Positions 1,990 through 39,810 of a DNA stretch of 40,856 bases are shown piece by piece. The stretch is from a virus. Its lineage: Duplodnaviria > Heunggongvirae > Uroviricota > Caudoviricetes. The notes under the pieces were generated by a model. It saw nothing but the letters and a program-made list of their open reading frames with translations, did no database searches and was not told where the DNA came from. Positions within the stretch are counted from its first letter, which is position 1, and every line of letters starts with the position of its first letter. The stretch covers positions 1-40,856 of the IMG/VR virus record IMGVR_UViG_2561511241_000004; one strand, written 5' to 3'. The position numbers and the translations under genes were made by a program.

Positions 1990-3675
1990 TTAAAAATCAG
2001 CCTGACTCGGGATCAGTTTTTGCCAGATAGCTGAAACGTATTTTGCCTGGTAACGAGCGTCATCAAGTGCATTATGGCGCTCACCTTCGAATGGAATAGC
2101 CGTTCTGGCATCGAAGTCTATGGCTTTCCCCAGCTCAACGATTGTGCGTACATCGCGATCGTTGTAGTAACGCCACGGGCAGGGGATCCCCTGCCGTTCG
2201 TATGAACGGCGCAAAATCGTGTTGTCGAAGTTGGCTCCATTTCCCCAAACCTGAACAAAAAATTCACCGGAGTTTTCGTCGATAAATTCCCGCAATTGTA
2301 ACAGTGCATCATCTAACGGGATTTCATCGGTCATAATGGCAGATTGCGCTTCGCGTGATTGCTTAAGCCACCATTTAATGGTGTCCCGATCAATGACTCC
2401 GCCAGCAGTTTCCAGATCGATAGTCTTACTAAATTCCGGTCCCATATCTCCGGTTTGCGGATCGAAAAATATTGCACCTATTGAGATGATCGGGGCATCA
2501 GGATTTTTTCCCATGGTTTCAAGGTCGATCATTAGATGGTCACACGTCCTGCTGGTGGATGTGATTTCTTGATGACCGTTCACCTTAATTGGGTGATCTG
2601 CCGTCTCGCCAGTTTCATTATCGCTATCGTGATGCTGATTGCCGCCAGTGTTCTCCTTGTGTGGATGTTCAGCGCCTTCCATTTCCTCCGGATCATCTTC
2701 CTGAACTTCAACCTGATACTCTTCATCGAATGTTTCCTGGTATGTAGCGTCGCCCATCACCGCGCCACAATCAGGGCAGTTGCCGCCGCCGGTCTGACCG
2801 CAGGCGGTGCAGACTTTTTCCACTTCCTGTTGCACTACTGGTTCAGGTAGTTTCGTTTCTGGCTCGTTTTGTTGCGTATTTTGGCTGTTTTGTTCCGCTT
2901 TCTGGTCGTTCTGTTCCGTTTCTTGCTGGTTCTGGTTCACAGAATCGCGGGTTTCAATCCCCTTCACCCATTTCGGATCATTCGGATCGCTAATCCCTGC
3001 AACAAATTCACCACGTGATACTGCAAGCAGTTCATCGGCGTCAGGCTGGCTGATATTGGCTGCCTGCATAATTTTGTTTACTTCGTCAGCGGTAACTTTT
3101 ACCGGCCCTGGTTGTGCGGTCGTGTCAGATGCACCAGTATTTTGTTGTGAACCTGAGTATGTACCGTTTTTGCGGGCGAAATATTCTTCTTTCGTGATTT
3201 CAGTAGCCCCTGCAGCCAGTGCCTTATCCAGACCAGAAAGTTTGTTTGCGCGACCGTATTTTTCGCTATCCTTGTCGGTGAAGAGGAAGTAGAACGGCCC
3301 TTCACGCTCTACAGATGGTTCGACTTCCACTTTGCATTCGGTTTTTTCGTTGTCCGGAATTGCCGTTTCCACTGCATCAGTTTCTGGTACTGGCGACGAG
3401 AGAGTATCAGTTGCGCTCTGATTTCTTCCTTCATCTTCAAACACGCCCTTTGTAGTCAGGTATTCAGTAATGTATTTGTTCAGTGCCACAGGGTCTTTGT
3501 GAATGTCGATCGGACGTTCACGGACAAGGCCAAAAATAGTCTGGCGGTCGTAGCGAAGGGCATCAGGCTGTTTGCGCATTGATGCCGAGATACGCTTCCA
3601 GTCTTCGCGGTCGTTGTCGATAACTTCTTTTTTTGCCCAGCGATGGATGCTGCCGTCAATGTTTCCGGCATCCAC
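1990..3675 (-). CDS. exonuclease, C-terminal portion with DnaQ-like DEDDh 3'-5' exonuclease domain; out of frame with the upstream portion
   Basis: C-terminal region carries Exo-like motifs (LMIDLETMG, WGNGANFD, HNALDDA); frame opens only about 30 nt upstream of its GTG, and the preceding ORF runs into junk sequence here. Confidence 0.6.
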   Translation of the reverse strand: MDAGNIDGSIHRWAKKEVIDNDREDWKRISASMRKQPDALRYDRQTIFGLVRERPIDIHKDPVALNKYITEYLTTKGVFEDEGRNQSATDTLSSPVPETDAVETAIPDNEKTECKVEVEPSVEREGPFYFLFTDKDSEKYGRANKLSGLDKALAAGATEITKEEYFARKNGTYSGSQQNTGASDTTAQPGPVKVTADEVNKIMQAANISQPDADELLAVSRGEFVAGISDPNDPKWVKGIETRDSVNQNQQETEQNDQKAEQNSQNTQQNEPETKLPEPVVQQEVEKVCTACGQTGGGNCPDCGAVMGDATYQETFDEEYQVEVQEDDPEEMEGAEHPHKENTGGNQHHDSDNETGETADHPIKVNGHQEITSTSRTCDHLMIDLETMGKNPDAPIISIGAIFFDPQTGDMGPEFSKTIDLETAGGVIDRDTIKWWLKQSREAQSAIMTDEIPLDDALLQLREFIDENSGEFFVQVWGNGANFDNTILRRSYERQGIPCPWRYYNDRDVRTIVELGKAIDFDARTAIPFEGERHNALDDARYQAKYVSAIWQKLIPSQADF

Positions 3676-4460
3676 ATCACAGGCCAGAGAGCGTAGGCCA
3701 GTTCGTCATCCAGTGTTTTCCATGTCTGCTTGTATTCGCGATGAGTGGCAGCAATGACCGGGCTGATTTTTCCTGTTGAATTTTCAGTGTTCTGTTGATT
3801 GGCTCTGGCGCGGGCGAGATCAACAACAGACGTGTATTTTCCGGTTTCCTTGCGTTCACCTTCGCGACGTTTTTTCCAGATGCGCATCTCTGCCTGAATT
3901 TCGGGCCATTTAGCACCAGGAATACATTTATGCTTAACCCACCCAATGGCGTGCAACTTAAGCTCCGGATACATGGCGTTAACTTCTGGCATTTTCATCA
4001 ACGCTTCAACGATATGTCCGTCGAATGTTGCCATGTCTTCCTGCAACAATTCCTGTGCGCTAATAACCATATCAACGGTTATGTTTTCACATGTGTCGAA
4101 CTTAACCATGACAGCGTTCTGTACTTCAGGGGCCAGCTTGTCAAAAGTGACGTTCATCGGATCGGATTCAGTCTCAACCGGGACAAAAGAAGCAGACTCC
4201 TCATCCCAGCGGTTTTCCTGCATATATTCAGCATCCCATGAATCGAGGGCAGGGCAGGGTATGCCAGGTTTATCCTCGCAGACAATAAATTTATAAGCGC
4301 AGTCCTGAGCAGCCGGATAATGTTCCAGGAATTGCCAGTGAAATTTTGCTCGAGCACGGCGTTCGTCGCCAGCTTCAATGGCTGTGGCTACAGCCACAGC
4401 GCCTTCTTCCCTTGTTGCCAGTTCGTCAGGAATAGCGGCGCAAATAAAGACTTTACTCAT
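3480..4460 (-). CDS. exonuclease N-terminal portion (YdfE-like), separated from the C-terminal portion by a frame change near 3670-3706
   Basis: Protein-like translation up to about 3680, then low-complexity junk to the stop at 3480; ATG at 4460 preferred. Confidence 0.5.
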   Translation of the reverse strand: MSKVFICAAIPDELATREEGAVAVATAIEAGDERRARAKFHWQFLEHYPAAQDCAYKFIVCEDKPGIPCPALDSWDAEYMQENRWDEESASFVPVETESDPMNVTFDKLAPEVQNAVMVKFDTCENITVDMVISAQELLQEDMATFDGHIVEALMKMPEVNAMYPELKLHAIGWVKHKCIPGAKWPEIQAEMRIWKKRREGERKETGKYTSVVDLARARANQQNTENSTGKISPVIAATHREYKQTWKTLDDELAYALWPVMWMPETLTAASIAGQKKKLSTTTAKTGSVSRHQCANSLMPFATTARLFLALSVNVRSTFTKTLWH

Positions 4461-4552
4461 TTGTTTTAACCTCATGACAGATTTAAGGATGAACAAATCC
4501 CTGCCATTGCTGGCATATAAGAATGAAACCGGATATTTATTACGGAACTGTT

Positions 4553-4744
4553 TTAAAGACCTGCCGGGATTTCGATATTATCCTGGTGAATAACTTTATC
4601 GACCGGGTAACAGTTACCGGGAATTTTCTGTTCGGTTGCTGCAGTCATACACTCCTGCATTGTCCTGTGAACACTGACTGCAATATCAACTGGCTCTCCG
4701 GAAACAAGAAAAACTGTCAGAACAAGCACAAATGCTGAATTCAT
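4553..4744 (-). CDS. ydfD: YdfD-like small membrane (lysis) protein, 63 aa
   Basis: 63 aa with N-terminal hydrophobic segment; start overlaps the dicB stop (ATGA); position matches Qin ydfD downstream of dicB. Confidence 0.6.
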   Translation of the reverse strand: MNSAFVLVLTVFLVSGEPVDIAVSVHRTMQECMTAATEQKIPGNCYPVDKVIHQDNIEIPAGL

Positions 4745-4929
4745 TGTGCACATCCTTTTGGCATCAGACGTAAACGAGCCAGCATTGAAACAATGCATAT
4801 TTTATTTAATAGCTCCCGTTCTTGTTTTCTCTTGTTAATGGCATCTTCAGTAAATACAGGGTTACTGATAGTGACACCAATTTCAAAACAACCTTCAGAC
4901 GTATTAACGTTTGGTAATAACGTTTTCAT
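4741..4929 (-). CDS. dicB: cell division inhibitor DicB (62 aa)
   Basis: Translation MKTLLPNVNTSEGCFEIGVTISNPVFTEDAINKRKQERELLNKICIVSMLARLRLMPKGCAQ matches my recollection of DicB; GAGGA RBS. Confidence 0.8.
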   Translation of the reverse strand: MKTLLPNVNTSEGCFEIGVTISNPVFTEDAINKRKQERELLNKICIVSMLARLRLMPKGCAQ

Positions 4930-5104: not shown

Positions 5105-5158
5105 GGGCGGCAGAGCAGTCACGGAGTAAAAACTGATACCGCCAAACGTCACCAGAAA
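5105..5158 (-). ncRNA. dicF: DicF small RNA (ftsZ-targeting, Hfq-dependent in K-12)
   Basis: Minus-strand sequence UUUCUGGUGACGUUUGGCGGUAUCAGUUUUUACUCCGUGACUGCUCUGCCGCCC followed by a U-run; matches recollected DicF; sits just upstream of dicB as in Qin. Confidence 0.75.
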
Positions 5159-11023: not shown

Positions 11024-11162
11024 GATAGTAAATGCATGTAATGAGACGGGGGGGGTGAGGGGAGGCTTCATCTGGATAGATCTTGCACCGTTCATATGTT
11101 ATAAAAACAATTCCTACTGTTAAATCGTTGTTTGTTTTAGTTGCTATATTTAAGGAGTGAAT

Positions 11163-11420
11163 ATGCAGTTAATTGTTGATTACCCAGATCATAACATTTA
11201 TTCATCTTTTGTGGATGCGGATGCTGAACTTCGAGAGTTAAATGGTGGGGCAGTAGTTGTAATAACGGTAAAAATACCTCTTACTAGCACATCGGAACAG
11301 TTGTTTAATAAATACACTTGCGGGGAAAGTCTTCGTATTAAATTGAGGAATGGCGATGAATGGAAAATGTATTTCGTTATGCTTGATGGAGGGCGCTATA
11401 TATTTTCCTCGCACCTGTGA
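11163..11420 (+). CDS. hypothetical protein (85 aa) in AT-rich DNA
   Basis: Strong AAGGAG RBS 5 nt upstream of the ATG. Confidence 0.5.
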   Translation: MQLIVDYPDHNIYSSFVDADAELRELNGGAVVVITVKIPLTSTSEQLFNKYTCGESLRIKLRNGDEWKMYFVMLDGGRYIFSSHL

Positions 11421-11673
11421 TAAAAATGATGAGCCGAGACTGTATTTACGGGACGCTGAGAGAATACCATAGAAAAGCTTATCTAACTTAAGTAGAATTG
11501 CTGCGGGTGCTTGAGGCTATCTGCCTCAGGCATGAACACCAAAGGCAGATAGAGAAAAGCCCCAGTTAACATTACGCGTCCTGCAAGACGCTTAACATTA
11601 ATCTGAGGCTCAATCTATGAACGGCAAATCTAGGTTAGCCTCTTACGTGCCGAAAGGCAAGGAGAAGCAGGCT

Positions 11674-11829
11674 ATGAAGCAGCAAAAGGCGATGTTAATC
11701 GCCCTGATCGTCATCTGTTTAACCGTCATTGTGACGGCACTGGTAACGAGGAAAGACCTCTGCGAGGTACGAATCCGAACCGGCCAGACGGGGGTCGCTG
11801 TCTTCACAGCTTACGAACCTGAGGAGTAA
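11674..11829 (+). CDS. hokD: Hok/Gef-family type I toxin (HokD/RelF-like, 51 aa)
   Basis: MKQQKAMLIALIVICLTVIVTALVTRKDLCEVRIRTGQTGVAVFTAYEPEE; AGGAGA RBS; in-frame upstream extension from 11617; mRNA 5'/3' complementary elements present. Confidence 0.8.
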   Translation: MKQQKAMLIALIVICLTVIVTALVTRKDLCEVRIRTGQTGVAVFTAYEPEE

Positions 11830-11972
11830 GAGACCTGGCGGGGGAGAAATCCCTCGCCACCTCTGATGTGTCAGGCATCCTCAACGCACCCGCACTTAAC
11901 CCGCTTCGGCGTTTTTTCCGTTGATTAACTCTAGTTATTAGAGAACCGAACTTTTATTGATGGGGCAGGGAG

Positions 11973-12365
11973 ATGAAGAAACTTGTTTTAGTTGCAGGTG
12001 TAATGATTGCAACAGTAATGTTGGGAGGGTGTGCAGCAAAGGTCGATCCAGCGTTGAAAGCAGAAGCAATGAAGCCACTAACATGTAATGATGAAAAGCA
12101 ATGTGACTTTTATTGGAAACGAGCGCAATTCTGGTTGGCTAATAATTCCTCATGGAAAATTCAAACGGCGACAGACACGCTAATTTCCACTTATAATCCC
12201 TCTCCAAATAGTCCATTCCTCGCTTATCAAGTGAGTAAAATGCCAAATGAAGATGGATCCTCAAGAATTTTCATCAAGCCTTTTTGCGATAATATGTTTG
12301 GCTGTCAACCAAACCCCTATCAGGCAGTTGTTTCCTTTAAAAACTTCGTTAAAACAGGGCAGTAG
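11973..12365 (+). CDS. lipoprotein (signal peptide with LGGC lipobox), 130 aa
   Basis: N-terminal MKKLVLVAGVMIATVMLGGC; Cys-rich mature part; AT-rich context. Confidence 0.65.
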   Translation: MKKLVLVAGVMIATVMLGGCAAKVDPALKAEAMKPLTCNDEKQCDFYWKRAQFWLANNSSWKIQTATDTLISTYNPSPNSPFLAYQVSKMPNEDGSSRIFIKPFCDNMFGCQPNPYQAVVSFKNFVKTGQ

Positions 12366-12564
12366 TGTATAGCTTGGACGATAAATTATTAGTGAAAACG
12401 CCGTAAACCCTCACCCAATGTGGACTAAGTCTATCAAACATGACTGTGATGATTAGTCCGTAGTTGTTGTCTATGAAATCTGGATTGAGTCAGGGTTTAA
12501 TCCAATAATTATTCTATCGTTCCTTTACAAGTCCGGTATATTACTTTCAGTTTGTTTTAGCATA

Positions 12565-12589
12565 CCCGCTTCGGCGGGTTTTGTTTTTT
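12565..12589 (+). terminator. rho-independent terminator (UUCG-loop hairpin)
   Basis: cccgc-ttcg-gcggg followed by ttttgtttttt. Confidence 0.5.
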
Positions 12590-12661
12590 CCTGGCATTCT
12601 GGTTTACAATTCGCACGCCAGCCTGAACAACTGGCACCTGCTGCGCCAGCAGAGACAACCG

Positions 12662-12940
12662 ATGGCGCACGATACCAAATTACACAATTCTGATGATTCT
12701 GCCGTCTTTGCCAGCAGGCACGGGCGGCGTTCCCGCACTTTCAAATCTGACTGGTTCCAGCATGACCCATGTACTGAAGAACAGGCCGAATGGCTAATTC
12801 ATAACTATCGCAGACGCGGATACGAGATTAAGAAAGCCCTCAGCCTCGATTATCGTCACTGGATAATCTATGTCAGGCTCCCTTATTCCGAACGCCCACC
12901 GCACCCATCCCGCACATACCAGCAACGGATCTGGAGGTAA
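12662..12940 (+). CDS. hypothetical protein (92 aa), stop abuts the DUF968 start
   Basis: ATG at 12662 with a weak RBS; TAA at 12938-12940 lies 2 nt before the GTG of the next gene. Confidence 0.4.
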   Translation: MAHDTKLHNSDDSAVFASRHGRRSRTFKSDWFQHDPCTEEQAEWLIHNYRRRGYEIKKALSLDYRHWIIYVRLPYSERPPHPSRTYQQRIWR

Positions 12941-15243: not shown

Positions 15244-15319
15244 GGCCCTTTAGCTCAGTGGTGAGAGCGAGCGACTCATAATCGCCAGGTCGCTGGTTCA
15301 AATCCAGCAAGGGCCACCA
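15244..15319 (+). tRNA. tRNA with anticodon CAU (Ile2/Met type, ileX/ileZ-like)
   Basis: Clean cloverleaf: 7-bp acceptor stem, GCTC/GAGC D-stem, anticodon loop CUCAUAA, TTCAAAT T-loop, CCA end; very similar to E. coli ileX. Confidence 0.8.
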
Positions 15320-15320
15320 G

Positions 15321-15397
15321 CCGCCACTAGCTCATCAGGAAAGAACGTCAACCCTTTAAGTTGAGTGTGCGAGGTTCGAGTCCCCGGTGGCGGTCCA
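15321..15397 (+). tRNA. tRNA-like gene with unusual anticodon loop CCUUUAA (C at position 33); identity uncertain
   Basis: Perfect 7-bp acceptor stem, TCAAC/GTTGA anticodon stem, TTCGAGT T-loop, CCA end; mismatches in D- and T-stems. Confidence 0.5.
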
Positions 15398-15399
15398 GT

Positions 15400-15476
<77 letters not shown>

Positions 15477-15479
15477 TAT

Positions 15480-15554
<75 letters not shown>

Positions 15555-26486: not shown

Positions 26487-26508
26487 AACCGCTTCGGCGG
26501 TTTTTTTC
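26487..26508 (+). terminator. terminator-like UUCG hairpin between the T and tape measure genes
   Basis: accgc-ttcg-gcggt followed by ttttttt. Confidence 0.35.
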
Positions 26509-32134: not shown

Positions 32135-35100
32135 ATGGGTAAAGGCAGCAGTAAGGGGCATACCCCGCGCGAAGCGAAGGACAACCTGAAATCCACGCAG
32201 CTGCTGAGTGTGATTGATGCCATCAGCGAAGGGCCGATTGAAGGTCCGGTGGATGGATTAAAAAGCGTGCTGCTGAACAGTACGCCAGTGCTGGACAGTG
32301 AGGGGAATACCAACATCTCCGGCGTCACGGTGGTGTTCCGGGCCGGTGAGCAGGAGCAGACACCGCCGGAGGGATTTGAATCCTCCGGCTCCGAGACGGT
32401 GCTGGGTACGGAAGTGAAATACGACACGCCGATCACCCGGACCATCACGTCGGCAAACATTGACCGACTGCGTTTTACCTTCGGCGTGCAGGCACTGGTG
32501 GAAACCACCTCAAAGGGGGACAGGAATCCGTCGGAAGTCCGCCTGCTGGTTCAGATACAGCGTAATGGTGGCTGGGTGACGGAAAAAGACATCACCATTA
32601 AGGGCAAAACCACCTCGCAGTATCTGGCCTCGGTGGTGGTGGGTAACCTGCCGCCGCGCCCGTTCAATATACGGATGCGCAGGATGACGCCGGACAGCAC
32701 CACAGACCAGCTGCAGAACAAAACGCTCTGGTCGTCATACACCGAAATCATCGATGTGAAACAGTGCTACCCGAACACGGCACTGGTCGGCGTGCAGGTG
32801 GACTCGGAGCAGTTCGGCAGCCAGCAGGTGAGCCGTAATTATCATCTGCGCGGGCGTATTCTGCAGGTGCCGTCGAATTATAACCCGCAGACGCGGCAAT
32901 ACAGCGGTATCTGGGACGGAACGTTTAAACCGGCATACAGCAACAACATGGCCTGGTGTCTGTGGGATATGCTGACCCATCCGCGCTACGGCATGGGGAA
33001 ACGTCTTGGTGCGGCGGATGTGGATAAATGGGCGCTGTATGTCATCGGCCAGTACTGCGACCAGTCAGTGCCGGACGGCTTTGGCGGCACGGAGCCGCGC
33101 ATCACCTGTAATGCGTACCTGACCACACAGCGCAAGGCGTGGGATGTGCTCAGTGATTTCTGCTCGGCGATGCGCTGTATGCCGGTATGGAACGGGCAGA
33201 CGCTGACGTTCGTGCAGGACCGGCCATCAGATAAGGTGTGGACCTATAACCGCAGTAATGTGGTGATGCCGGATGATGGTGCGCCGTTCCGCTACAGCTT
33301 CAGCGCCCTGAAGGACCGCCATAATGCCGTTGAGGTGAACTGGATTGACCCGAATAACGGCCAGGAGACGGCGACAGAGCTTGTGGAGGATACGCAGGCC
33401 ATTGCCCGTTACGGTCGTAACGTCACGAAAATGGATGCCTTTGGCTGTACCAGCCGGGGGCAGGCACACCGAGCCGGGCTGTGGCTGATTAAAACGGAGC
33501 TGCTGGAAACGCAGACCGTGGACTTCAGCGTGGGTGCTGAAGGGCTTCGCCATGTGCCGGGCGATGTCATTGAAATCTGCGATGATGACTATGCCGGTAT
33601 CAGCACCGGTGGTCGCGTGCTGGCGGTGAACAGCCAGACCCGGACGCTGACGCTCGACCGTGAAATCACGCTGCCATCCTCCGGCACCACGCTGATAAGC
33701 CTGGTTGACGGAAATGGCAATCCGGTCAGCGTGGAGGTTCAGTCCGTCACCGACGGCGTGAAGGTGAAAGTGAGCCGGGTTCCTGACGGCGTTGCTGAAT
33801 ACAGCGTGTGGGGGCTGAAGTTGCCGACGTTGCGCCAGCGCCTGTTCCGCTGTGTGAGTATCCGTGAGAACGATGACGGCACGTATGCCATCACTGCCGT
33901 GCAGCATGTACCGGAAAAAGAGGCCATCGTGGATAACGGGGCGCACTTTGACGGCGACCAGAGCGGCACGGTGAATGGTGTCACGCCGCCAGCGGTGCAG
34001 CACCTGACCGCCGAAGTCACCGCAGACAGCGGGGAATATCAGGTGCTGGCGCGCTGGGACACGCCGAAGGTGGTGAAGGGCGTGAGCTTCCTGCTCCGTC
34101 TGACCGTAACAGCGGATGACGGCAGTGAGCGGCTGGTCAGCACGGCCCGGACGACGGAAACCACATACCGCTTCACGCAACTGGCGCTGGGGAACTACAG
34201 GCTGACTGTCCGGGCTGTAAATGCGTGGGGACAGCAGGGCGAGCCGGCATCGGTATCGTTCCGGATTGCCGCACCGGCAGCGCCGTCTCGGATTGAGCTG
34301 ACACCGGGCTATTTTCAGATAACCGCCACGCCGCATCTTGCGGTTTATGATCCGACGGTACAATTTGAGTTCTGGTTCTCGGAAACGCGGATTACCGATA
34401 TCAGGCAGGTTGAAACCACAGCCCGCTACCTTGGCACGGGGCTGTACTGGATAGCCGCCAGTATCAATATCAAACCGGGCCATGATTATTACTTTTATAT
34501 CCGCAGTGTGAACACCGTTGGCAAATCGGCATTCGTGGAGGCCGTCGGTCGGGCGAGCGATGATGCGGAAGGTTACCTGGATTTTTTCAAAGGCAAGATA
34601 ACCGAATCCCATCTTGGTAAAGAGCTGCTGGAAAAAGTCGACCTGACGGAGGATAACGCCAGCAAACTGGAGCAGTTTTCGAAAGAGTGGAAGGATGCCA
34701 ACGATAAATGGAATGCCATGTGGGCTGTCAAAATTGAGCAGACCAAAGACGGCAAACATTATGTCGCGGGTATTGGCCTCAGTATGGAGGACACGGAGGA
34801 AGGCAAACTGAGCCAGTTTCTGGTTGCCGCTAACCGTATCGCGTTTATTGACCCGGCAAACGGGAATGAAACGCCGATGTTTGTGGCGCAGGGCAATCAG
34901 ATATTCATGAACGACGTGTTCCTGAAACGCCTGACGGCCCCCACCATTACCAGTGGTGGAAATCCACCGGCATTTTCCCTGACACCGGATGGGCGGCTGA
35001 CGGCGAAAAATGCCGATATCAGCGGTAACGTGAATGCGAACTCCGGGACGCTCAACAACGTCACGATTAACGAGAACTGTCGGGTTCTGGGAAAACTGTC

Positions 35101-35530
35101 CGCGAACCAGATTGAAGGCGATCTCGTTAAAACAGTGGGCAAAGCTTTCCCCCGGGACTCCCGTGCACCGGAACGGTGGCCATCAGGGACCATTACCGTC
35201 AGGGTTTATGACGATCAGCCGTTTGACCGGCAGATTGTTATTCCGGCGGTGGCATTCAGCGGCGCTAAACATGAGAGAGAGCATACTGATATTTACTCCT
35301 CATGCCGTCTGATAGTGCGGAAAAACGGTGCTGAAATTTATAACCGTACCGCGCTGGATAATACGCTGATTTACAGTGGCGTTATTGATATGCCTGCCGG
35401 TCACGGTCACATGACGCTGGAGTTTTCGGTGTCAGCATGGCTGGTAAATGACTGGTATCCCACAGCAAGTATCAGCGATTTGCTGGTTGTGGTGATGAAG
35501 AAAGCCACCGCAGGCATCAGTATCAGCTGA
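32135..35530 (+). CDS. J: tail tip / host specificity protein J
   Basis: 1131 aa, lambda J-like throughout, including fibronectin-like repeats and a C-terminal receptor-binding region. Confidence 0.95.
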
Positions 35531-35597: not shown

Positions 35598-36197
35598 ATG
35601 CGTAAAGTTTGTGCAGCCATTTTGTCCGCAGCCATCTGTCTGTCCGTATCCGGTGCGCCTGCATGGGCGTCTGAACATCAGTCCACACTGAGCGCAGGGT
35701 ATCTTCATGCCCGTACGAACGCTCCCGGCAGCGATAATCTGAACGGGATTAACGTGAAATACCGTTATGAGTTTACGGACACGCTGGGGCTGATTACGTC
35801 CTTCAGTTATGCCAATGCTGAGGATGAGCAAAAAACGCACTACAGCGATACCCGCTGGCATGAAGATTCCGAGCGTAATCGCTGGTTCAGCGTGATGGCG
35901 GGGCCGTCTGTACGCGTGAATGAATGGTTCAGCGCGTATGCGATGGCGGGTGTGGCTTACAGCCGTGTGTCGACTTTCTCCGGGGATTATCTCCGCGTAA
36001 CTGACAACAAGGGGAAAAAGCACGATGTGCTGACCGGAAGTGATGACGGTCGCCACAGCAACACGTCTCTGGCGTGGGGAGCTGGCGTGCAGTTTAACCC
36101 GACCGAATCCGTGGCCATTGATGTCGCTTATGAAGGCTCCGGCAGTGGTGACTGGCGCACTGACGGGTTCATCGTGGGTGTTGGTTATAAATTCTGA
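35598..36197 (+). CDS. lom: outer membrane protein Lom (Ail/Lom family)
   Basis: Near-identical to lambda Lom; signal peptide; ends ...GFIVGVGYKF. Confidence 0.9.
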   Translation: MRKVCAAILSAAICLSVSGAPAWASEHQSTLSAGYLHARTNAPGSDNLNGINVKYRYEFTDTLGLITSFSYANAEDEQKTHYSDTRWHEDSERNRWFSVMAGPSVRVNEWFSAYAMAGVAYSRVSTFSGDYLRVTDNKGKKHDVLTGSDDGRHSNTSLAWGAGVQFNPTESVAIDVAYEGSGSGDWRTDGFIVGVGYKF

Positions 36198-39226: not shown

Positions 39227-39810
39227 TGGCATTCAGAATGAGTGAACAACCACGGACCATAAAAATTTATAATCTGCTGGCCGGAACTAATGAATTTATT
39301 GGTGAAGGTGACGCATATATTCCGCCTCATACAGGTCTGCCAGCAAACAGTACCGATATTGCACCACCAGATATTCCTGCTGGCTTTGTGGCTGTTTTCA
39401 ACAGTGATGAGGCATCGTGGCATCTCGTTGAAGACCATCGGGGTAAAACGGTTTATGACGTAGCGTCAGGGGACGAGTTATTTATTTCTGAACTCGGTCC
39501 GTTACCGGAAAATGTTACCTGGTTATCGCCGGAAGGGGAGTTTCAGAAGTGGAACGGCACAGCCTGGGTGAAGGATACGGAAGCAGAAAAACTGTTCCGG
39601 ATCCGGGAGGCGGAAGAAACAAAAAACAACCTGATGCAGGTAGCCAGTGAGCATATTGCGCCGCTTCAGGATGCTGCAGATCTGGAAATTGCAACGGAGG
39701 AAGAAACCTCATTGCTGGAAGCCTGGAAAAAGTATCGGGTGTTGCTGAACCGTGTTGATACATCAACTGCACCTGATATTGAGTGGCCTACGAACCCTGT
39801 CAGGGAGTAA
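39226..39810 (+). CDS. tfa: tail fibre assembly protein (Tfa)
   Basis: 194 aa, [18 protein letters not shown]... Tfa family; immediately follows stf. Confidence 0.85.
39656..39810 (+). repeat. direct repeat copy 1 (tfa 3' region, about 85% identical to 40697..40856)
   Basis: Aligned by eye: gcgcc(g/a)ct(t/g)caggatgctg(c/t)agatctggaaat(t/c)gcaacggaggaagaaa... Confidence 0.6.

What the first reader, a model, noticed from the sequence alone, without database searches (positions are those of the whole stretch)
11973..12589. Lipoprotein cargo gene in AT-rich DNA, followed by a 200-bp structured non-coding tail
A 130-aa lipoprotein with four Cys in the mature part sits alone between hok and the nin-like genes. 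Prophage lipoproteins at such positions are often superinfection-exclusion factors that block phage receptors (Cor- or Llp-like). The 3' tail contains an inverted repeat (ggactaagtc ... gattagtcc) and a strong UUCG-loop terminator, so it could also encode a small RNA.
Basis: inference. Interest (0 to 1): 0.45.

Follow-up and report, generated by a model that had tools for sequence, protein, structure and literature searches.

The report
Orphan lipoprotein moron behind prophage hok
A small gene for an outer-membrane lipoprotein of an unstudied but widespread family has been slotted in behind the hok toxin gene of an E. coli lambdoid prophage. The 200-base stretch after it is dispensable spacer that ends in the terminator normally used by hok, not a structured RNA.

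Summary
The sequence features are real: a 130-aa lipoprotein ORF (11973-12365) with a lipobox Cys20 and four more Cys, AT-rich DNA, an inverted repeat and a UUCG-loop terminator.

The gene is functional. It is under purifying selection (dN/dS about 0.1-0.3), has no indels in 55 copies, and gives a confident AF2 model.

It belongs to a large unnamed family: 1134 clusters at 50% identity, with no Pfam or NCBIfam model and no confident match to a solved structure. It is not Cor or Llp; only the signal peptide aligns.

It behaves as mobile cargo. The hokD|DUF968 slot is empty or holds other cargo in related prophages. Close homologues in other genera sit at four different places in tail-tip gene clusters, each followed by a terminator. 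More distant ones are the main cargo of 2.5-kb ColE1-type plasmids.

The 198-nt tail is not special. Its folding energy is no better than shuffles (z = -0.62) and it has no Rfam hit. It is absent next to homologues outside E. coli.

The terminator is identical to the hok terminator of empty-site prophages. The copy directly after hok is crippled, so hok probably reads through into the lipoprotein gene.

An exclusion or envelope-protection role is plausible but unproven.

The parts
11505..11679 (+). hok mRNA 5' regulatory region / sok (context; upstream neighbour)
   Evidence: Rfam RF01794 sok, 111.7 bits, full length. A promoter-like site lies at 11470-11498 just upstream.
11674..11829 (+). 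hokD toxin ORF (context). It is probably the first cistron of the transcript that carries the lipoprotein gene.
   Evidence: Pfam HOK_GEF, E = 9.8e-22. Annotated as hokD in the identical locus L001.
11878..11889 (+). CCTCAACGCACC, complementary to the hok mRNA 5' end GGTGCTTGAGG (fbi-like element). It lies just 5' of the insertion junction and is intact.
   Evidence: Read from the sequence. Calling it fbi is an inference from the hok/sok literature.
11899..11917 (+). Left, crippled copy of the terminator hairpin (ACCCGCTTCGGCG-TTTTTT). It has lost GGTTTTG and is the left junction of the cassette.
   Evidence: Direct repeat D2 with 12564-12582. No hairpin is predicted (dG -4.5, z = 0.10), against -13.8 for the empty-site terminator. 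Almost all E. coli copies carry the truncated form (47 of 54 have the identical junction; the near-identical variants keep the truncation).
11918..11972 (+). Cassette leader. It is homologous to the leader upstream of the lipoprotein gene in other genera and contains the palindrome CTCTA..TAGAG (11929-11943) and a G-rich SD.
   Evidence: Alignment A5 with L074, L060, L059 and L061. No sigma-70 consensus site was found here.
11973..12365 (+). Lipoprotein gene (130 aa; WP_000737636.1; phrog_16082). Signal peptide residues 1-19, lipid-modified Cys20, Ala at +2, and two Cys-x5-Cys pairs (C38/C44, C105/C111).
   Evidence: dN/dS is 0.115 against L074. Within E. coli there are 17 synonymous and 14 nonsynonymous variable sites and no indels in 55 copies. 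The AF2 model has pLDDT about 95 over residues 30-130.
12366..12563 (+). 198-nt AT-rich non-coding tail: dispensable spacer
   Evidence: z = -0.62. No Rfam hit. No coding remnant. Found only attached to this gene, in 254 of 5426 genomes. Length variants of 198, 197, 129 and 94 nt exist.
12423..12461 (+).
   Evidence: Hairpin dG -13.8, z = -1.99. It is removed by a 69-nt deletion in 10 of 55 loci and half-removed in L058. One arm position (12430) is polymorphic without compensation.
12564..12590 (+). Intact intrinsic terminator (UUCG tetraloop, 6-bp stem, U-run). It is identical to the hok terminator of prophages without the insert and forms the right junction of the cassette.

Best explanation
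This is a moron: a roughly 650-bp horizontally mobile cassette (11899-12590) recombined into the terminator of the prophage's hok/sok locus.

The cassette consists of a terminator-type hairpin, a conserved leader of about 55 nt, a 130-aa lipoprotein gene and, in E. coli only, about 200 nt of spacer. It ends in the terminator that hok uses in insert-free prophages.

The protein is exported, lipidated on Cys20 and, with Ala at +2, sorted to the inner face of the outer membrane. There it folds into a compact alpha+beta domain stabilised by two local Cys-x5-Cys disulfide loops. It works alone, with no conserved partner gene.

Its most likely job is to alter or shield an envelope component so that the lysogen, or the infected cell, resists superinfecting phage or another envelope-directed attack. 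That is exclusion in the broad sense, not Cor/Llp-type masking of the phage's own receptor.

The copy of the hairpin directly behind hok has lost its 3' arm, and no promoter consensus lies between the genes. The lipoprotein gene is therefore probably transcribed by read-through from the constitutive hok promoter in lysogens, and by antiterminated early transcription after induction. Both transcripts would stop at 12564-12590.

The tail has no function of its own.

Shown: anatomy, mobility, purifying selection, family size, non-membership of Cor and Llp, dispensability of the tail.
Inferred: localisation, read-through expression, exclusion function.
My probability that the protein is an anti-phage or envelope-protection factor is about 0.4.
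For: Insertion anatomy:
- The empty site in L003 reads hok...ACCCGCTTCGGCGGGTTTTGTTTTTTCCTGGCATTC. In the window the same sequence is split into a truncated left copy and an intact right copy around the insert.
- The same hairpin plus a homologous leader precedes the gene in Enterobacter (L074) and in L060.
- The same hairpin brackets the unrelated cargo of LF82 at this slot.

Cargo behaviour:
- 253 of 5426 complete E. coli genomes carry the cassette, while about 4580 carry hokD.
- It occurs in prophages with HK97-like and with lambda-like head genes.
- Homologues of 66-85% identity lie at H|M, M|L, I|J and upstream of I in tail-tip clusters of other genera. A strong terminator follows 19-47 nt after the stop in the three cassettes scanned (L074, L061, L080).
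- A 42%-identical homologue is the main cargo of 2.5-kb ColRNAI plasmids.

Real, constrained protein:
- dN/dS is 0.115, with no indels in 55 copies.
- The second AF2 run gave five concordant models with mean pLDDT 84.6-86.4.
- The profile search found 1134 clusters, 504 of them at E <= 1e-10.
- The four Cys are conserved.

Periplasmic role: some family members are fused to PDZ or LysM domains or are tandem duplications.

Support for exclusion, by analogy only:
- Homologues sit in tail modules, where experimentally shown exclusion lipoproteins of E. coli siphophages lie (PMC11893012).
- One distant member sits beside GmrSD/McrA genes.

Tail dispensable.
Against: - There is no functional data of any kind and no hit to PADLOC defence models.
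- There is no confident structural relative. The best matches are BamC domains, Flpp3 and KA1, with E >= 0.007 and TM < 0.5.
- The protein stays 97-100% identical while the last 250 aa of the J tail-tip protein of its prophages vary to 55-65% identity. The J C-termini of the other genera do not align with the window's at all. This argues against tuning to the phage's own receptor.
- Read-through from hok rests only on the predicted loss of the hairpin and on a simple promoter scan. A non-consensus promoter in the leader is not excluded: three homologous leaders have a TGnTAGGAT element that the window lacks.
- One of 55 copies has a nonsense mutation (L052).
Confidence: 0.45

Rival explanations
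1. One reading: a Cor/Llp-type exclusion lipoprotein that binds and plugs the outer-membrane receptor used by this prophage itself (FhuA, LamB, OmpC or similar). This would block superinfection and protect progeny from debris.
For: - It is a lipoprotein with disulfides, as Llp is.
- Homologues lie next to gpI/gpJ or elsewhere in the tail-tip cluster.
- Exclusion lipoproteins matched to the receptor are encoded in structural clusters of E. coli siphophages (PMC11893012).
Against: - The mature domain is unrelated to Cor and to Llp and is about twice their size.
- L061 has a true Cor in addition.
- In E. coli the gene is 20 kb from J and occurs with at least three J C-terminal types at 55-65% identity.
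- Homologues of 73-85% identity accompany J proteins whose C-termini do not align with the window's J.
- Homologues are also carried on small plasmids with no phage genes.
Confidence: 0.15
2. The tail (12366-12590) gives rise to a discrete small RNA, for example a 3'-UTR-derived, Hfq-binding sRNA that shares the mRNA terminator.
For: - The non-coding stretch of about 200 nt is unusually long compared with 19-47 nt in homologous cassettes.
- It ends in a strong terminator with a U-run.
- The 3'-most 85 nt or so are retained in 54 of 55 copies.
Against: - Folding is no better than shuffles (z = -0.62).
- No Rfam family reaches threshold; the best hits have E = 0.6-0.7.
- Indels of 69 and 104 nt are tolerated and remove the only notable hairpin.
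- The tail is not found anywhere apart from this gene and is absent from homologous cassettes in other genera.
- The terminator itself belongs to hok in empty-site phages.
Confidence: 0.06
3. The lipoprotein is a host-fitness or virulence moron, like Bor/Iss or TraT. It would change envelope properties (serum or complement resistance, stress tolerance, adhesion) rather than phage susceptibility.
For: - Its position and format are those of lambda-type morons.
- The window also carries Lom (35598-36197).
- Carriage on plasmids and in many clinical and animal E. coli isolates is compatible with a host benefit.
Against: - No similarity to Bor, TraT or any Pfam family was found.
- The family extends far beyond animal-associated bacteria, to Mycetohabitans, Shewanella and environmental metagenomes.
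- The repeated placement inside tail-tip operons of other prophages points to phage biology.
Confidence: 0.18
4. The domain is a periplasmic inhibitor or immunity protein against a peptidoglycan hydrolase or bacteriocin. Its disulfide-constrained Cys-x5-Cys loops would insert into an enzyme active site, as the CKPHDC loop of Ivy does (recalled from memory as a lead, not tested).
For: - Two invariant Cys-x5-Cys loops.
- Fusion to the peptidoglycan-binding LysM domain in Acinetobacter plasmids.
- Neighbours in tail clusters include gpK with an NlpC/P60 domain.
Against: - Ivy, MliC/PliC and PliG structures are not among the top 50 Foldseek PDB matches for either model.
- No toxin or effector gene is adjacent.
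Confidence: 0.1

Closest known systems
Cor (phi80/N15/HK022/T1) superinfection-exclusion lipoprotein, phrog_1119
   Same: It is a phage-encoded lipoprotein with a classical signal peptide and lipobox. Homologues of the window protein occupy tail-module positions, as Cor does.
   Different: The mature domains are unrelated: hhalign aligns only 20 signal-peptide columns (probability 11%), and the PHROG match covers residues 1-44 only. The mature part is about 111 aa, against about 55-60 aa for Cor. A prophage carrying a homologue also encodes a genuine Cor. No FhuA link has been shown.
Llp of phage T5 (FhuA-blocking lytic-conversion lipoprotein)
   Same: A small outer-membrane lipoprotein with disulfide-bonded Cys. 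It is encoded by a phage and expressed without partner genes.
   Different: There is no similarity beyond the signal peptide (hhalign probability 25%, 20 columns). No Llp or FhuA-Llp entry is among the top 50 Foldseek PDB matches. In the window the gene is not adjacent to the receptor-binding protein gene.
Lambdoid 'morons' (Hendrix/Juhala definition; e.g. lambda bor and lom, HK97 gp15)
   Same: An extra gene sits between neighbours that are contiguous in related phages. Its base composition is deviant. It is bounded by terminator hairpins and recurs in unrelated genomic contexts.
   Different: No consensus promoter of its own was detected in the window copy. The upstream hairpin is crippled, so the gene appears to borrow the hok promoter.
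Type-A/type-C Lpp exclusion lipoproteins of mEpimmI coliphages (PMC11893012)
   Same: Lipoprotein genes located in the structural gene cluster of temperate E. coli siphophages. Cloned expression was shown to exclude phages using the matching receptor. This is the best functional analogy for the tail-module homologues.
   Different: They do not appear to be homologous. A tblastn of the window protein against 50,697 phage records found only two E. coli phages with the same gene. I did not confirm that the mEp genomes are in that collection. The window copy lies in the early region.
BamC helix-grip domains / Francisella lipoprotein Flpp3 (best structural matches)
   Same: Outer-membrane lipoproteins with a two-layer alpha+beta domain in which helices pack on an antiparallel sheet. 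They are the top Foldseek hits for both models.
   Different: The scores are weak (E = 0.007-0.03; TM 0.34-0.49; 12-18% identity), below the usual same-fold threshold. Neither has the two Cys-x5-Cys loops.

Membership tests
Cor superinfection-exclusion family (phrog_1119) | Sequence homology of the mature protein to Cor | tested here: not met
   The PHROG match covers residues 1-44 only (E = 0.007). hhalign of the family profile against the genuine Cor of L061 aligns 20 columns of signal peptide (probability 11%). That Cor itself scores 6e-26.
Cor superinfection-exclusion family (phrog_1119) | Exclusion of FhuA-dependent phages | not testable with these tools
   Needs plating and adsorption assays.
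T5 Llp family | Sequence or fold similarity to Llp | tested here: not met
   hhalign against the T5 Llp sequence (verified 100% identical to X75922.1) aligns the signal peptide only (probability 25%). There is no Llp among the top 50 Foldseek PDB hits.
T5 Llp family | Gene adjacent to the receptor-binding protein gene | tested here: not met
   The window gene lies 20 kb upstream of J (32135-35530). Homologues in other genera are near J.
Bacterial lipoprotein (Lgt/LspA/Lnt substrate) | N-terminal signal peptide with a lipobox [LVI][ASTVI][GAS]C | tested here: met
   The N-terminus reads MKKLVLVAGVMIATVM-LGG-C20. The -2 Gly is atypical, but homologues have LSGC, LVGC or LTAC at the same column. 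Ala at +2 implies outer-membrane sorting by the E. coli Lol rule (established knowledge, not tested).
Phage moron | An extra gene between genes that are adjacent in related phages | tested here: met
   In L003 hokD is followed directly by the 92-aa ORF and DUF968. The slot holds rem in K-12 and two other genes in LF82.
Phage moron | Base composition different from the surroundings | tested here: met
   GC is 0.37-0.42 against 0.49-0.62 in the flanks.
Phage moron | Own promoter and own terminator (autonomous transcription unit) | tested here: inconclusive
   A terminator is present but identical to the resident hok terminator. No sigma-70 consensus site lies in 11918-11972. The homologous cassettes scanned have a terminator, and three have a TGnTAGGAT element in the leader.
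Bor/Iss, TraT, Lom-type envelope morons | Match to the Pfam family models | tested here: not met
   No Pfam hit at E <= 0.1 except a spurious C4 match. No NCBIfam hit.
Small regulatory RNA in the 3' tail | Match to a known RNA family, or a fold more stable than chance | tested here: not met
   No Rfam match in the tail at gathering score. The best sub-threshold hits have E = 0.62-0.70. Whole-tail z = -0.62.
Small regulatory RNA in the 3' tail | Conservation of sequence and structure among relatives | tested here: not met
   Deletions of 69, 104 and 1 nt occur in 15 of 55 copies, while the CDS has none. No tail homologue lies next to the gene in other genera.
Small regulatory RNA in the 3' tail | A discrete stable transcript | not testable with these tools
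   Needs RNA-seq or a Northern blot.
Known anti-phage defence systems (PADLOC-DB) | Match to a defence-protein model | tested here: not met
   None of 50 family members gives a meaningful hit (one DpdE match at E = 0.004).

The most novel reading that the evidence does not exclude
The protein is the founding, testable member of a large unnamed family of stand-alone periplasmic or outer-membrane domains with two Cys-x5-Cys loops. Phages (in tail-tip operons and early regions), ColE1-type plasmids and other mobile elements would carry it to make the cell envelope refractory to incoming phage or other envelope-targeting attack, by a mechanism that does not depend on the carrier phage's own receptor. 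In the E. coli version, expression would be hard-wired to the hok/sok transcript through loss of the hok terminator.
Probability: 0.3. Interest if true: 0.55.

Novelty: new member of a known kind. Interest (0 to 1): 0.33.

Why it matters
If the protein is an exclusion or envelope-protection factor, it would name and give a function to a family of more than 1000 sequence clusters that has no Pfam or NCBIfam model and is annotated only as 'hypothetical protein' in about 5% of complete E. coli genomes. It would also add a third, structurally distinct type of phage-encoded exclusion lipoprotein beside Cor and Llp.

The anatomy also gives a clean example of how morons move. The same terminator hairpin (CCCGCTTCGGCGGGTTTT) marks cassette junctions in the window, in Enterobacter tail operons and around unrelated cargo in LF82.

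As it stands this is an ordinary uncharacterised moron, and the 'structured tail' part of the finding can be set aside.

Tried and rejected
- **Family libraries.** Pfam, NCBIfam and PADLOC scans of the protein and of 34-50 family members named no family for the domain. They found only PDZ in fusion proteins.
- **PDB sequence searches.** The close-homologue profile found nothing. The broad profile hit only PDZ proteins through the fused members.
- **Genome scan.** The genome-contig scan with the close-homologue alignment found 17 pattern matches but no tblastn-confirmed relative.
- **Coding remnant in the tail.** tblastn with the neighbour proteins of homologous cassettes and a six-frame reading found no remnant.
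- **Tail DNA elsewhere.** Plasmids gave no match. In E. coli genomes the tail occurs only where the gene does.
- **Conserved partner gene around distant family members.** None was found; the contexts are unrelated.
- **Literature.** Nothing was found on WP_000737636 or on a lipoprotein behind hokD. PMC7724020 turned out to be irrelevant.
- **L005 as an alternative left junction.** Rejected: it is an IS3-family insertion abutting the SD.

Full report
**Setting.** The window is an E. coli lambdoid prophage. Rfam finds DicF, a complete hok/sok regulatory region (11505-11679) and four tRNAs downstream of Q. Pfam finds Hok, DUF968 and related families. An identical 801-bp stretch lies in E. coli CV839-06, where the genes are annotated in the order hokD, hypothetical protein WP_000737636.1, hypothetical protein, DUF968, RusA, Q.

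**The observation.** ORF 11973-12365 encodes 130 aa with a textbook lipoprotein N-terminus (MKKLVLVAGVMIATVMLGG-C20) and four more Cys. GC falls to 0.37-0.42 across the gene and tail, against 0.49-0.62 on either side. Two parts of the description fail. Only the terminator is clearly non-random (z = -3.1).

**The cassette is an insertion into the hok terminator.**
- Prophages with an empty site (L003) read hok...CTTAACCCGCTTCGGCGGGTTTTGTTTTTTCCTGGCATTCTGG. This is exactly the sequence at 12560-12600 of the window.
- Behind hok the window has ACCCGCTTCGGCG-TTTTTTCC, the same hairpin minus GGTTTTG. This copy no longer folds (dG -4.5, z = 0.1, against -13.8 for the intact form).
- Almost all E. 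coli copies share this truncated junction: 47 of 54 have the identical sequence, and the near-identical variants keep the truncation.
- The slot is a cargo site. It is empty in strain 2000-3039, holds rem in K-12 Qin, and in LF82 holds two unrelated genes that are themselves bracketed by the same hairpin.
- The hairpin and the leader of about 55 nt between it and the ATG are homologous to the sequence upstream of the lipoprotein gene in Enterobacter (L074, right after the tape-measure stop codon) and in L060. The left hairpin is therefore best seen as a recombination junction shared by cassette and target.
- The pattern occurs three times in the window, against 0.01 expected by chance.

**Expression.** No sigma-70 consensus lies between hok and the ATG. 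Together with the crippled hairpin, this makes read-through from the hok promoter (a promoter-like site at 11470-11498) the simplest expression route. This is an inference. The element complementary to the hok mRNA 5' end (11878-11889) lies just upstream of the junction and is intact.

**The tail.**
- The 198 nt between stop codon and terminator occur in 254 of 5426 complete E. coli genomes, always attached to the gene and never elsewhere. They are absent from plasmids.
- They have no Rfam match and no detectable coding remnant.
- Among 55 IMG/VR prophage copies the CDS has no indel. The tail comes in lengths of 198 (40 copies), 197 (4), 129 (10) and 94 (1).
- In the homologous cassettes of other genera that were scanned (L074, L061, L080) the terminator follows the stop codon after only 19-47 nt, and their downstream sequence is unrelated to the tail.
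- The tail is therefore spacer DNA. A 3'-UTR-derived sRNA cannot be formally excluded without RNA data, but nothing supports it.

**The protein.**
- It is real and constrained. dN/dS is 0.115 against the Enterobacter homologue, and dS is saturated against the others. Within E. coli there are 17 synonymous and 14 nonsynonymous variable sites, and one nonsense allele in 55 copies.
- A word-indexed search finds only a handful of close relatives in Enterobacter, Pantoea and Phytobacter. An exhaustive profile search finds 1134 clusters at 50% identity, 504 of them at E <= 1e-10.
- The family signature is P-[IL]-x-C-x5-C-x2-[YK]-W...W...NS...KI.T..D..I.T...C-x5-C-x-P, with all four Cys invariant or nearly so.
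- No Pfam, NCBIfam, PADLOC or PDB sequence relative exists for the domain. PHROGs knows it only as phrog_16082, of unknown function.
- Some members carry a C-terminal PDZ domain, an N-terminal LysM domain (Acinetobacter 110-kb plasmids) or a tandem duplication. All of these point to a periplasmic role.
- AF2 with a 34-sequence alignment gives five concordant models with pLDDT about 95 over residues 30-130. The order of elements is helix, short strand, long helix, four-stranded antiparallel sheet, C-terminal helix.
- Foldseek finds nothing convincing. BamC domains, Flpp3 and KA1 domains come top at E = 0.007-0.1 and TM < 0.5, and BFVD gives nothing.

**Where the gene travels.** In E. coli it sits behind hok in prophages with HK97-like heads (the window, L071, L073) and with lambda-like heads (L070). 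Elsewhere it lies in the tail-tip cluster, but at different joints:
- between H and M (Enterobacter hormaechei);
- between M and L (L080);
- between I and J (Pantoea ananatis L066, L061, L062);
- upstream of I, beside a second lipoprotein (L059, L060).

A 42%-identical homologue with its own terminator is the main cargo of 2.5-4.6-kb ColRNAI plasmids of Citrobacter and Salmonella. Distant members are singletons in variable regions. One lies beside GmrSD/McrA genes, and there is no recurrent neighbour. The gene works alone and is repeatedly picked up by mobile elements.

**Comparison with Cor and Llp.**
- Profile-profile comparison with a genuine Cor (from L061, which has Cor in addition to the homologue) and with T5 Llp aligns only the signal peptide. 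The protein is not a member of either family.
- Functionally, the tail-module location matches that of experimentally shown exclusion lipoproteins in E. coli siphophages (PMC11893012).
- Against the specific 'masks its own receptor' model: the E. coli protein is 97-100% identical across prophages whose J C-terminal 250 aa are only 55-65% identical. Homologues of 73-85% identity accompany J proteins whose C-termini do not align with the window's.

**Verdict.** This is an ordinary-looking but uncharacterised lipoprotein moron. I put about 0.4 on an anti-phage or envelope-protection role in the broad sense, about 0.15 on own-receptor masking, about 0.2 on a Bor-like host-fitness role and about 0.1 on an enzyme-inhibitor role. 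The tail is not a feature in its own right. The modestly interesting by-products are the size and anonymity of the protein family, the reuse of one terminator hairpin as a moron junction, and the probable fusion of the gene to the hok transcript.

Noticed in passing
window 11900-11917, 12565-12582, 26488-26505; L002 about 2785 and 4650; L074 about 3925; L060 about 4885: The terminator hairpin CCCGC(T/C)TCGG(C/T)GGGTTTT recurs at the borders of unrelated cargo cassettes (this lipoprotein, the LF82 two-gene cargo) and inside tail operons of other genera. It looks like a shared recombination junction for morons. It occurs 3 times in the window, against 0.01 expected.
   Followed up: partly
window 11918-11972 (palindrome 11929-11943); alignment A5: The roughly 55-nt leader upstream of the lipoprotein ATG is conserved across genera. 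A small palindrome reads TAGGA..TCCTA in the other cassettes but CTCTA..TAGAG in E. coli, changed on both arms. Three other cassettes have an extended -10-like TGnTAGGAT that the window lacks.
   Followed up: partly
L005 1-331; L019 about 3600-4900; L052 CDS codon 52: Secondary events at the cassette in other E. coli prophages: an IS3-family element abutting the lipoprotein SD (L005), an insertion of about 1.3 kb in the hok 3' region (L019), and a Q52* nonsense allele (L052).
   Followed up: partly
window 12662-12940: A 92-aa ORF (phrog_1212, unknown function) is always the first gene after the cargo slot and immediately precedes DUF968. It is conserved in empty-site and cargo-bearing prophages alike.
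   Followed up: no
window 11157-11420: An AT-rich (GC 0.33-0.40) 87-aa ORF just upstream of hok/sok has no Pfam, NCBIfam or PHROG hit. It may be another small moron.
   Followed up: no
window 5105-5157 (-), 15244-15551 (+), 39569-39767 (+): Rfam finds DicF sRNA, a cluster of four tRNA genes downstream of Q (annotated Ile, Lys, Thr, Gly in L001) and the IS009 RNA near the side-tail-fibre end of the prophage.
   Followed up: no
L059 5374-5784; L060 5332-5679; L061 9634-9915: Prophages of other genera that carry the homologue have further lipoprotein morons in the same tail module: phrog_890 ('lipoprotein'), phrog_914 (unknown function) and a genuine Cor (phrog_1119). These modules accumulate several envelope lipoproteins.
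   Followed up: partly
L081 5001-10186: A distant family member (P0186) lies next to an outer-membrane beta-barrel gene and GmrSD/McrA-type restriction genes, a defence-island-like context.
   Followed up: no
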